Shown here: positions 3,866-4,073 of the stretch, piece after piece
Numbering within the stretch: position 1 is the stretch's first letter
How the letters are laid out: every line of letters starts with the position of its first letter
Source of the DNA: a virus
Lineage: Duplodnaviria; Caudoviricetes
Length of the DNA: 64,000 bases
Virus record (IMG/VR): IMGVR_UViG_3300021400_000134
Direction: 5' to 3' (one strand)
Notes under the pieces: model-generated
Told to the model about the DNA's origin: nothing
Databases searched by the model: none
The model's input: only the letters and a program-made list of their open reading frames with translations
Position numbers and translations under genes: made by a program

Positions 3866-3880
3866 TTCCTTTTTCTCCTT

Positions 3881-3948
3881 TCAAGACCCTAAAGTTTCTT
3901 TTATTACGAACAGGTAATTAGTAAACTGAAATTTGCTGTTAGGGTCTT
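3881..3948 (-). promoter_or_regulatory. Handle-motif stem in 5' UTR of the Ro60-like gene
   Basis: AAGACCCUA-ACAGCAAA...UAGGGUCUUGA immediately followed by the AAGGAG RBS. Confidence 0.6.
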
Positions 3949-4073
3949 TATTTATTACATTATTATTATATAATAAATTTTATTTAATTTCAAATATTTG
4001 CTCAAAATTTTCCCATATGCGATTTTTTGGCGGCAACGATCGTCCACGCTGGCTACCAAAAAAAATAATCCCC

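What the first reader, a model, noticed from the sequence alone, without database searches (positions are those of the whole stretch)
3866..3960. Cargo-less handle in the 5' UTR of the Ro-like gene: candidate autoregulatory operator
The handle stem ends directly at the AAGGAG RBS of the DUF2828-type gene and lies downstream of its promoter. Inference: free protein binds its own leader and represses translation, so protein level is matched to the RNA pool. This is also the best internal evidence linking the motif to this protein.
Basis: partly seen in the sequence, partly recalled or inferred. Interest (0 to 1): 0.7.

Follow-up and report, generated by a model that had tools for sequence, protein, structure and literature searches.

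The report
Y-RNA-like handle in Ro-like leader
The messenger RNA for this phage's Ro60-shaped RNA-binding protein begins with a small copy of the "handle" carried by the phage's own Y-RNA-like small RNAs, and related phages keep either this handle or a capped copy of its closing helix at the same spot, so the protein probably senses and limits its own synthesis there, though binding has not been shown.

Summary
On the minus strand, a 10-bp stem (3948-3939 with 3892-3883) is followed by the box CAGCAAA. It lies about 10 nt after a strong promoter and ends 2 nt before the AAGGAG ribosome-binding site of a 515-aa DUF2828+DUF7788 gene. The predicted fold of that protein matches Ro60 over its full length.

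The element belongs to a covarying handle family: NAG, 4 variable pairs, 3 nt, CAGCAA ... CUN, G. The window has four copies. I found 105 distinct copies in related phages, all on the gene strand.

The autoregulation reading is partly supported:
- A full or 32-35-nt mini handle ends 0-25 nt before the Ro-like ribosome-binding site or start codon in at least 10 lineages sharing ≤53% protein identity.
- New here: most sister phages (84 of 109 loci) carry instead a small leader hairpin, NNNN-CUN-G-loop-N'AG-NNNN. This is the handle's closing helix capped at its open end. It occurs nowhere else in five near-complete genomes.

Binding and repression remain untested. A co-transcribed small RNA gene, as in known Ro/Y-RNA loci, remains a serious rival.

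This scan has already reported the same family and the same leader idea on other DNA. I found no paper or Rfam family describing it.

The parts
4069..4083 (-). Intrinsic terminator of the upstream gene (4074-4484), followed by a T run
   Evidence: 6-bp GC-rich stem plus TTATTTTTTT. It isolates the Ro-like transcription unit.
3965..3993 (-). Promoter: -35 TTGAAA (3993-3988), 17-nt spacer, -10 TATAAT (3970-3965)
   Evidence: 11 of 12 matches; member of a 12-copy promoter repeat family (D1/D2). Conserved in L001, L002, L027 and L003.
3949..3958 (-). Predicted single-stranded 5' tail of the mRNA (start near G3958)
   Evidence: Inferred from the spacing to the -10 hexamer. Handle D (22384) has the same promoter-to-handle spacing.
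3939..3948 (-). Handle 5' arm AAGACCCUAA
   Evidence: Invariant A2 and G3, covarying positions 4-7 across the family.
3932..3938 (-). Conserved unpaired box CAGCAAA
   Evidence: Identical in all 5 leaders of the window's clade.
3893..3931 (-). Variable interior with a small 5-bp hairpin (3918-3903, 6-nt loop CUGUUC); no tRNA-like domain
   Evidence: Interior identity to L027 and L003 is 0.55 and 0.53, roughly what I would expect for unrelated AT-rich sequence (no shuffle control was run), while the arms stay conserved.
3882..3892 (-). Handle 3' arm UUAGGGUCUU plus the conserved unpaired G (3882)
   Evidence: 114 of 167 unconstrained gene-strand hits are followed by G, against 6 of 39 on the opposite strand.
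3875..3880 (-). Ribosome-binding site AAGGAG, 2 nt after the handle's G, 9 nt before the ATG
   Evidence: GGGUCUUGAAAGGAGA is invariant in the 5 leaders of the clade. Unpaired in the MFE fold.
2318..3865 (-). Ro60-like gene (515 aa; DUF2828 N-terminal part, DUF7788 vWA part with the MIDAS motif DxSxS at D307/S309/S311)
   Evidence: Pfam E 1e-39 and 1e-30. PHROG 850; invariant residues. AF2 model, top 13 PDB matches all Ro60/TROVE.
2287..2309 (-). Intrinsic terminator after the Ro-like gene
   Evidence: 9-bp stem plus TTTTTTATTT.
4841..4972 (-). Handle RNA B: same handle (AAGGCAC/GUGCCUU+G) around a permuted tRNA-like body
   Evidence: Weak Rfam YrlA match, 33.6 bits, below the gathering score of 69.
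5162..5264 (-). Handle RNA C: same handle (AAGUCGC/GCGACUU+G) around a tRNA-Cys-like body
22270..22384 (-). Handle RNA D: same handle (AAGGCAC/GUGUCUU+G), with its own promoter about 11 nt upstream

Best explanation
The element is a cis-acting copy of the recognition module ('handle') of this phage's Y-RNA-like small RNAs, built into the 5' leader of the mRNA for their presumed protein partner, a Ro60-fold DUF2828 protein.

The most likely working is feedback. The protein first loads onto the free handle RNAs (B, C, D and any outside the window). Surplus protein then binds the leader handle, whose closing helix ends 2 nt from the AAGGAG site. A roughly 58-kDa ring at that position would keep the 30S subunit off the ribosome-binding site.

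Shown: the motif, its family membership, its place in the leader, its conservation, and the Ro60-like fold.
Inferred: that the protein binds the handle, and that binding lowers translation rather than stabilising the mRNA.
For: 1. Family membership. The window has four copies with NAG-N7-CAGCAA...CUN-G and covarying positions 4-7. In 109 related loci there are 105 distinct gene-strand copies with 38 different stems, and none on the other strand. 99 of 110 occurrences of the 5' motif have their own 7-bp partner, against a control mean of 16.6.

2. Link to the protein. Handles lie beside DUF2828 genes in Tsamsa, P100, Lumos, Ben, EC6, BcoS-136, S-CoN_Ph9, NCTC12673 and B23. The protein model matches Ro60 structures over its full length, E 4e-8 to 5e-5, TM 0.43-0.63.

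3. Leader position recurs. A full or mini handle ends 0-25 nt before the ribosome-binding site or start codon of the Ro-like gene in at least 10 lineages with ≤53% protein identity. In L127 the handle's 3' G is the first base of GGAGG. Of the 14 handles that abut any ORF start, 11 abut the Ro-like gene.

4. Only the handle is constrained. The promoter, both arms, CAGCAA and GAAAGGAGA are invariant in 5 leaders. The interior cannot be aligned at 73% protein identity, whereas the tRNA-like body of copy C stays 83% identical.

5. Capped helix. Sister clades lacking the full leader handle carry NNNN-CU-N-G-(2-4 nt)-N'-AG-NNNN in the leader, in 84 of 109 loci (loci from two overlapping fetches, duplicates included) against a background of 0.0096 per 95 nt. 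It shows 97% pairing, 5 of 7 pairs compensatory, 0 of 500 shuffles as good. Its invariant C-G and U-A pairs, the variable apical pair and the following G are the same features that are invariant or variable in the handle's closing helix. In five near-complete genomes the only copy with a stem is in the Ro-like leader; four further 10-mer matches are at the control rate, and the one exact match I read is coding and stemless. A 16-20-nt hairpin cannot be a Y-like RNA, so it points to a cis role at this position.

6. The ribosome-binding site is unpaired in the free RNA, so any control needs a trans factor.
Against: - No binding or expression data exist.
- Y RNA genes directly upstream of, and co-transcribed with, Ro genes are already known (M. 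smegmatis YrlA/YrlB, PMC4201824; phage phiLo Yrl1/Yrl2, PMC12135203). Adjacency is therefore expected even without regulation.
- Equally short handles occur as free-standing genes in tRNA arrays, so being short is not special to leaders.
- Handle D has the same promoter-to-handle spacing yet is followed by tRNA genes, not an ORF.
- Several lineages have no leader element. In Enterococcus phage Ben a terminator and a promoter separate the handle array from the gene.
- The capped helix lacks CAGCAA, the most conserved part of the handle, and usually lies 8-16 nt from the ribosome-binding site.
- Many of the 109 loci are close relatives, so the counts overstate independence.
Confidence: 0.5

Rival explanations
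1. It is simply one more Y-RNA-like small RNA gene that shares the promoter of the Ro-like gene. The precursor is cut after CUUG, releasing a short handle-only RNA that works in trans like the other short family members. Its closeness to the ribosome-binding site reflects phage genome compaction, not regulation.
For: Y RNAs upstream of Ro genes and processed from one precursor are documented (PMC4201824; PMC12135203). Short handles of 50-76 nt are common as free-standing genes. P100, Tsamsa, BcoS-136 and Ben have arrays of handles upstream of the gene. Handle D starts a transcript in the same way. Three handles abut other small ORFs.
Against: This does not explain why sister clades keep a 16-20-nt capped helix, too small to be such an RNA, at the same place and nowhere else in their genomes. 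It does not explain 32-35-nt mini handles touching the ribosome-binding site (L126, L127). It does not explain why the interior is free to vary. A cut after CUUG would leave an mRNA with only 2 nt before the ribosome-binding site.
Confidence: 0.27
2. The conserved closing helix (NAG/CUN+G) is read by another factor, not by the Ro-like protein. One candidate is a host or phage nuclease that trims handle RNAs out of tRNA-array transcripts. Alternatively the structure acts as a 5'-end stabiliser of the mRNA. The leader element then controls mRNA processing or lifetime.
For: The invariant nucleotides sit exactly at the predicted RNA ends, which is where a processing enzyme would act. The capped helix keeps only this part and lacks CAGCAA. 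The element is about 10 nt from the 5' end, as in known 5' stabilisers (inference).
Against: A plain stabiliser needs no invariant sequence. The element is specific to the Ro-like gene's leader among all genes of five genomes, which fits a gene-specific partner better than a general nuclease. The full leader handle of this window keeps CAGCAA intact.
Confidence: 0.15
3. It is an ordinary leader hairpin or a chance match with no relation to the other copies.
For: The region is AT-rich, and a loose scan (stem plus CAGCAA only) gives background hits: 17 observed against 5.4 in shuffles.
Against: The strict motif occurs 4 times against 0.055 expected. The arms and box are invariant while the interior diverges. 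A compensatory stem is seen in L024 at 44% protein identity.
Confidence: 0.03

Closest known systems
Ro60/Rsr with Y RNAs (bacterial and mycobacteriophage YrlA/YrlB, Rfam RF02553; Thermus phage phiLo Ro60 with Yrl1/Yrl2)
   Same: A ring-plus-vWA protein (fold match). Small RNAs whose 5' and 3' ends pair into a stem next to a conserved unpaired box. tRNA-like bodies in some copies. RNA genes next to, often upstream of, the protein gene and sharing its transcript (PMC4201824, PMC12135203).
   Different: The protein is DUF2828/DUF7788, not Pfam TROVE, and has no sequence match in the PDB. The box is CAGCAA rather than GNCGAA/CGAA. The invariant nucleotides lie at the very ends of the RNA. No autoregulatory leader or capped-helix mimic has been described for Ro60; the library search found none.
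Autogenous translational operators that mimic the protein's main RNA target (E. coli ThrRS on the thrS leader; ribosomal proteins S15, S8, L1, L20; phage T4 RegA and gp32; MS2 coat protein hairpin) - from established knowledge
   Same: A copy or partial copy of the protein's RNA target sits in its own mRNA leader at or just upstream of the ribosome-binding site. The logic is to match protein level to the pool of free target RNA.
   Different: Nothing has been shown experimentally here. The target is a Y-RNA-like handle. Relatives use a circularly permuted (capped) copy of the target's closing helix. I know of no precedent for this, though I did not search for one.
Dictyostelium Class I RNAs (Rfam RF01414; PMC7919456)
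   Same: These are 42-65-nt RNAs with a short covarying stem joining the ends, conserved termini (start AAG, end CUGU) and a conserved unpaired motif containing ACAGCAA next to the 5' arm. The Rfam model aligns end to end with the leader handle.
   Different: The score of 25.4 bits is below the gathering score of 41.5. Class I RNAs are eukaryotic and nuclear-encoded, their known binder is an RRM protein (Rnp1A), and no link to DUF2828 has been reported.

Membership tests
Ro60 / TROVE protein family | Ring of HEAT-like helices closed by a vWA domain (overall fold) | tested here: met
   AF2 model (pLDDT 72). The top 13 Foldseek PDB matches are all Ro60/TROVE over about 530 columns, E 4e-8 to 5e-5, TM 0.43-0.63.
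Ro60 / TROVE protein family | Sequence match to the Pfam TROVE domain or to solved Ro60 proteins | tested here: not met
   Pfam gives DUF2828 and DUF7788 only. phmmer against PDB sequences finds nothing at E ≤ 10.
Ro60 / TROVE protein family | MIDAS motif DxSxS in the vWA domain | tested here: met
   D307, S309 and S311 are invariant in 20 homologues.
Ro60 / TROVE protein family | Binds Y RNA through the conserved stem | not testable with these tools
   Only co-occurrence of handles with the gene is shown.
YrlA (Rfam RF02553) | Score at or above the gathering threshold; GNCGAA motif; tRNA-like T and D arms | tested here: not met
   The leader element gives no YrlA match at E ≤ 1. Only copy B scores, at 33.6 bits against a gathering score of 69, through its tRNA-like part. 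The box is CAGCAA.
CAGCAA-handle RNAs that accompany DUF2828 genes (uncatalogued; seen repeatedly by this scan) | Closing helix NAG...CUN of at least 7 bp with covarying inner pairs, then 3 nt, then unpaired CAGCAA, plus an unpaired G after the 3' arm | tested here: met
   Coordinates. The invariants were recovered without being imposed. Non-circular pairing test.
CAGCAA-handle RNAs that accompany DUF2828 genes (uncatalogued; seen repeatedly by this scan) | Same strand as, and close to, a DUF2828 gene | tested here: met
   The element is 17 nt upstream of the gene's ATG, and all 105 distinct copies lie on the gene strand.
Autogenous translational operator | Lies within the gene's own mRNA leader | tested here: inconclusive
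   The promoter and flanking terminators are predicted. No transcript data exist.
Autogenous translational operator | Resembles the protein's primary RNA target and abuts the ribosome-binding site | tested here: met
   The handle matches copies B-D in all the family's invariant features and ends 2 nt before AAGGAG. The assumption that the handle is the protein's target is inferred.
Autogenous translational operator | The protein binds the leader and lowers its own translation | not testable with these tools
   No tool here models protein-RNA binding or expression.
Autogenous translational operator | The element is conserved in the leaders of homologous genes | tested here: met
   A full or mini handle is present in at least 10 lineages and the capped helix in 84 of 109 loci. 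It is absent in some lineages.
Dictyostelium Class I RNA (RF01414) | Score at or above the gathering threshold | tested here: not met
   25.4 bits against 41.5. The alignment is full-length and E is 0.0036 in a 111-nt search.

The most novel reading that the evidence does not exclude
Ro60-fold DUF2828 proteins recognise mainly the closed end of their partner RNAs, that is the A-U and G-C pairs plus the 3' G. Across many phage lineages they regulate their own mRNA through either a full handle or a circularly permuted, capped copy of that helix. This would be the first autoregulatory circuit in the Ro60 superfamily and would define a minimal binding site of about 16 nt. Dictyostelid Class I RNAs share the same ends (AAG...CUGU) and the ACAGCAA box. 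The same recognition code may therefore extend to eukaryotic DUF2828 proteins and name the missing partner of those orphan RNAs.
Probability: 0.25. Interest if true: 0.85.

Novelty: new variant of a known kind. Interest (0 to 1): 0.6.

Why it matters
DUF2828 is a large protein family of unknown function, present in 701 phage records in the collection searched. The handle RNAs give it a likely RNA partner.

The leader elements give the most compact and testable form of that partnership. These are a 67-nt RNA in this window and a roughly 16-20-nt hairpin in its relatives, and either can go straight into binding and reporter assays.

If the feedback is real, it shows how a phage matches a Ro-like protein to its pool of tRNA-mimicking RNAs. 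The capped helix would then mark which nucleotides the protein reads.

Tried and rejected
- No whole genome is held for the window, so handles outside the 64 kb could not be counted. Near-complete relatives have about 5-6 candidate handles each.
- Rfam at gathering thresholds finds only tRNAs and tmRNA in the window.
- The exact 5' motif at 13540-13524 lies in coding sequence without a credible partner, so it is a chance match.
- Reading the capped hairpin or the leader's inner hairpin as an anticodon-arm mimic was rejected. The loops are 4, 6 or 8 nt, not 7. My loose motif also hits true tRNA anticodon arms, and those hits were excluded. Only L003's leader cargo has a 7-nt CUGCAAA loop.
- The commonest hairpin, CTTGTCCAAG, is nearly palindromic. 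Its reverse strand also matches my pattern, and it could in principle be a DNA operator. I rejected this as the main reading. Variants with loops GUUA, GUAA, GACU, GAUA, GAAA and GCCU break the palindrome. Many copies follow an RNA gene or an ORF with no promoter nearby.
- Lineage-specific matches between handle ends and leader hairpins are weak. In P100, CCUG/UAGG lies two pairs below the apex. In Tsamsa the hairpin is not the MFE fold.
- I tested whether leader handles have more degenerate boxes than free ones. The one-mismatch scan gave too many false positives to tell.
- A second CTTGTCCAAG in genome G003 is in coding sequence and has no stem.
- The first MAFFT alignment of the leaders (A3) misaligned five hairpins, so I re-extracted fixed windows (A4) for pair counting.

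Full report
**The element**

All features are on the minus strand.
- The upstream gene (4074-4484) ends in an intrinsic terminator at 4083-4069.
- A TTGAAA-17-TATAAT promoter follows at 3993-3965, matching 11 of 12 consensus positions. It belongs to a promoter repeat family with 12 copies in the first 25 kb.
- About 10 nt after the predicted start comes AAGACCCUAA (3948-3939), then CAGCAAA (3938-3932), then a 39-nt interior.
- The partner arm UUAGGGUCUU lies at 3892-3883, followed by an unpaired G (3882) and two A's.
- AAGGAG is at 3880-3875 and the ATG at 3865.
- The ORF (2318-3865, 515 aa) ends before a second terminator at 2309-2287.

The unit is therefore promoter, handle, one gene, terminator. 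The 67-nt element folds as drawn (-17.0 kcal/mol, z = -3.7, 0 of 200 shuffles as stable), and the ribosome-binding site stays single-stranded. The observation and its coordinates are correct.

**The protein**

Pfam assigns DUF2828 (residues 17-158) and DUF7788 (301-491). PHROGs assigns family 850, 'RNA-binding protein'. No sequence-level match to any solved structure was found.

An AlphaFold2 model built on 20 homologues has a mean pLDDT of 72. Its top 13 PDB matches are all Ro60/TROVE proteins aligned over about 530 columns, with E 4e-8 to 5e-5 and TM 0.43-0.63. They include the phage phiLo Ro60, D. radiodurans Rsr and Xenopus/human Ro60. The vWA MIDAS residues D307, S309 and S311 are invariant. 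'Ro-like' is justified by fold, not by sequence family.

**The handle family**

Three other RNAs in the window carry the same module:
- B (4972-4841) holds a permuted tRNA-like body.
- C (5264-5162) holds a tRNA-Cys-like body.
- D (22384-22270) has its own promoter.

All four start AAG, have 7 further nucleotides, then CAGCAAA, and end ...CUU-G. Positions 4-7 covary: ACCC/GGGU, GCAC/GUGC, UCGC/GCGA and GCAC/GUGU. The strict motif occurs 4 times on this strand and 0 times on the other, against 0.055 expected in shuffles.

I scanned 109 related loci without imposing the terminal nucleotides.
- The gene strand holds 167 distinct stem-plus-CAGCAA hits. Of these, 105 have AG at positions 2-3 and a G after the 3' arm.
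- The opposite strand holds 39 hits, and none has both features.
- There are 38 different 7-nt stems.
- Position 1 is A in 70%, U in 20% and G in 10% of copies, with a matching partner in each case.

In a non-circular test, 99 of 110 occurrences of the 5' motif have their own 7-bp partner. The control, with inner stem nucleotides swapped among occurrences, gave a mean of 16.6. No Rfam family reaches its threshold.

**Link between handles and the protein**

Handles lie next to DUF2828 genes in very distant phages.
- Upstream of the gene: Bacillus phages Tsamsa and BcoS-136; Listeria phage P100 (three in tandem); Enterococcus phage Ben (four); Campylobacter phage NCTC12673; Synechococcus phage B23.
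- Downstream of the gene: Mycobacterium phage Lumos (three, one with a permuted tRNA body); E. coli phage EC6; Staphylococcus phage S-CoN_Ph9.

I found none within 2.5 kb in Vibrio phage nt-1 or in the fragment MT837221. This comparative evidence links motif and protein more strongly than the leader copy does.

**Is the leader copy an operator?**

Four results bear on this.

First, the layout recurs. A full handle, or a 32-35-nt mini handle, ends 0-25 nt before the ribosome-binding site or start codon of the Ro-like gene in:
- the window's clade (window, L001, L002, L003, L027);
- L024, L124, L126, L127/L128 and L134;
- L130 (box CAGCAC) and L131 (box CGGCAA);
- the Campylobacter phage;
- the cyanophage (box CAGCAU).

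These lineages share at most 53% protein identity. In L127 the handle's 3' G is the first base of GGAGG. Of 176 distinct handles, 14 are followed within 50 nt by a ribosome-binding site, a start codon and an ORF of at least 60 codons. Eleven of these ORFs are the Ro-like gene and three are other small ORFs.

Second, within the window's clade the promoter, both arms, CAGCAA and GAAAGGAGA are invariant. The interior has diverged to 0.55 and 0.53 identity at about 75% protein identity, roughly what I would expect for unrelated AT-rich sequence (no shuffle control was run). The tRNA-like body of copy C keeps 0.83 identity at the same distance. Only the handle and its junction with the ribosome-binding site look constrained.

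Third, and new here, most sister phages (50-64% protein identity) lack the full leader handle. They carry instead a small hairpin 25-30 nt before the ATG, most often CCUCUUGUCCAAGAGG. The general form is NNNN-C-U-N-G-(2-4 nt)-N'-A-G-NNNN.
- It is present in the 95-nt leader of 84 of 109 loci, against a background of 0.0096 per 95 nt. The 109 loci come from two overlapping fetches and include duplicates. Most 'background' hits are merely the reverse strand of the same hairpins.
- On 30 distinct versions, 97.1% of cells pair, 5 of 7 pairs show compensatory changes, and no shuffle out of 500 does as well.
- The two pairs next to the apical pair are invariant C-G and U-A. The apical pair varies: U-A 24, C-G 3, A-U 1.
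- The loop begins with G, but the rest of the loop varies: UCC, UUA, UAA, ACU, AUA, AAA, CCU or ACC.

These are the same features that are invariant or variable in the handle's closing helix: position 1 variable, A2-U and G3-C invariant, G after the 3' arm. The hairpin is therefore that helix with its open end capped and its inner end opened.

In five near-complete genomes (156-201 kb) the only copy of the 10-mer with a stem lies in the Ro-like leader. Four further 10-mer matches occur at the rate of a reversed-pattern control, and the one exact match I read (G003) is coding sequence without a stem. Such a hairpin cannot be a Y-like RNA, so something acts in cis at this position.

Fourth, the ribosome-binding site is not sequestered by the RNA alone, so any control needs a trans-acting factor.

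**Evidence that keeps the reading at 'partly supported'**
- No binding or expression data exist.
- Y RNA genes directly upstream of Ro genes and processed from a shared precursor are documented (PMC4201824, PMC12135203). Adjacency is expected anyway.
- About half of all handles are as short as this one, and many stand free in tRNA arrays.
- Handle D opens a transcript in the same way but is followed by tRNA genes.
- Several lineages have no leader element. In Enterococcus phage Ben a terminator and a promoter separate the handle array from the gene.
- The capped helix lacks CAGCAA, and its conserved nucleotides could equally be read by a processing nuclease.
- Lineage-specific parallels in P100 and Tsamsa turned out weak.

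My estimates are about 0.5 for feedback through protein binding and 0.27 for a co-transcribed small RNA. I give 0.15 to recognition by another factor or to mRNA stabilisation, and 0.03 to chance.

**Comparison with what is known**

As a particle, this resembles Ro60/Rsr with YrlA-type Y RNAs. It fails membership by protein sequence family, RNA box and Rfam score.

As a mechanism, it resembles autogenous operators that mimic the protein's RNA target, such as ThrRS on the thrS leader, ribosomal proteins, and T4 RegA and gp32. This comparison rests on established knowledge.

The library search found no report of Ro60 regulating its own mRNA and no relevant paper on DUF2828.

The leader handle also aligns end to end with the Rfam model of Dictyostelium Class I RNAs, at 25.4 bits, below the gathering score of 41.5. 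Those RNAs start AAG, end CUGU, and carry an unpaired motif next to the 5' arm (PMC7919456).

**Earlier notes of this scan**

The DUF2828/handle pairing and the leader-operator idea have been reported before on other genomes. This case is therefore not the first within the scan.

It also adds the monocistronic unit, the contrast between a free-to-vary interior and a conserved handle, and the 11-to-3 bias of abutting ORFs.

Noticed in passing
window 5162-5264 (-); L001:776-877, L002:1161-1264, L027:770-869: The tRNA-like body of handle RNA C keeps its arms, but its anticodon-loop triplet differs between close relatives. It is CUGCAAA (GCA) in the window, CUGAAAA (GAA) in L001 and L027, and a different loop in L002.
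   Followed up: partly
window 4712-4819 (-): A ~108-nt element lies between handle B and tRNA-Thr. It starts GGCGGGC and ends GACCGCC-ACCA, which looks like an acceptor-like stem with a CCA-type tail around a long insert. Neither ARAGORN nor Rfam calls it a tRNA.
   Followed up: no
L077:749-819, L097:166-280, L130:2955-3017: Three handles in other phages end 2-9 nt before the ribosome-binding site of small ORFs (84-89 aa) that are not the Ro-like gene. These ORFs were not identified.
   Followed up: no
L035:1700-2310 (Enterococcus phage vB_OCPT_Ben): Each of the four handle RNAs is preceded by a second repeated module of about 60 nt (AAAAAGGUUUUG...CAUAG...CCGGAACAUAA). This gives a four-unit array of two-part repeats upstream of the DUF2828 gene.
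   Followed up: no
L034:3984-4240 (Mycobacterium phage Lumos): Three handle RNAs with ends UGGAC...GUCCA-G lie directly after the annotated 'RNA-binding protein' gene and before a terminator. The middle one carries permuted T and D arms like YrlA.
   Followed up: partly
G006:C1:92877 and G007:C1:61624 (genomes of L002 and L027): The same 15-mer AGUGUCUGGCAGCAA occurs in both relatives, far from the Ro-like locus. It may be another handle or a conserved coding segment.
   Followed up: no
window 3882-3947 (-): The Rfam model of Dictyostelium Class I RNA (RF01414) aligns with the whole leader handle (25.4 bits, below threshold). The published Class I ends (AAG...CUGU) resemble the phage handle ends (AAG...CUUG).
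   Followed up: partly
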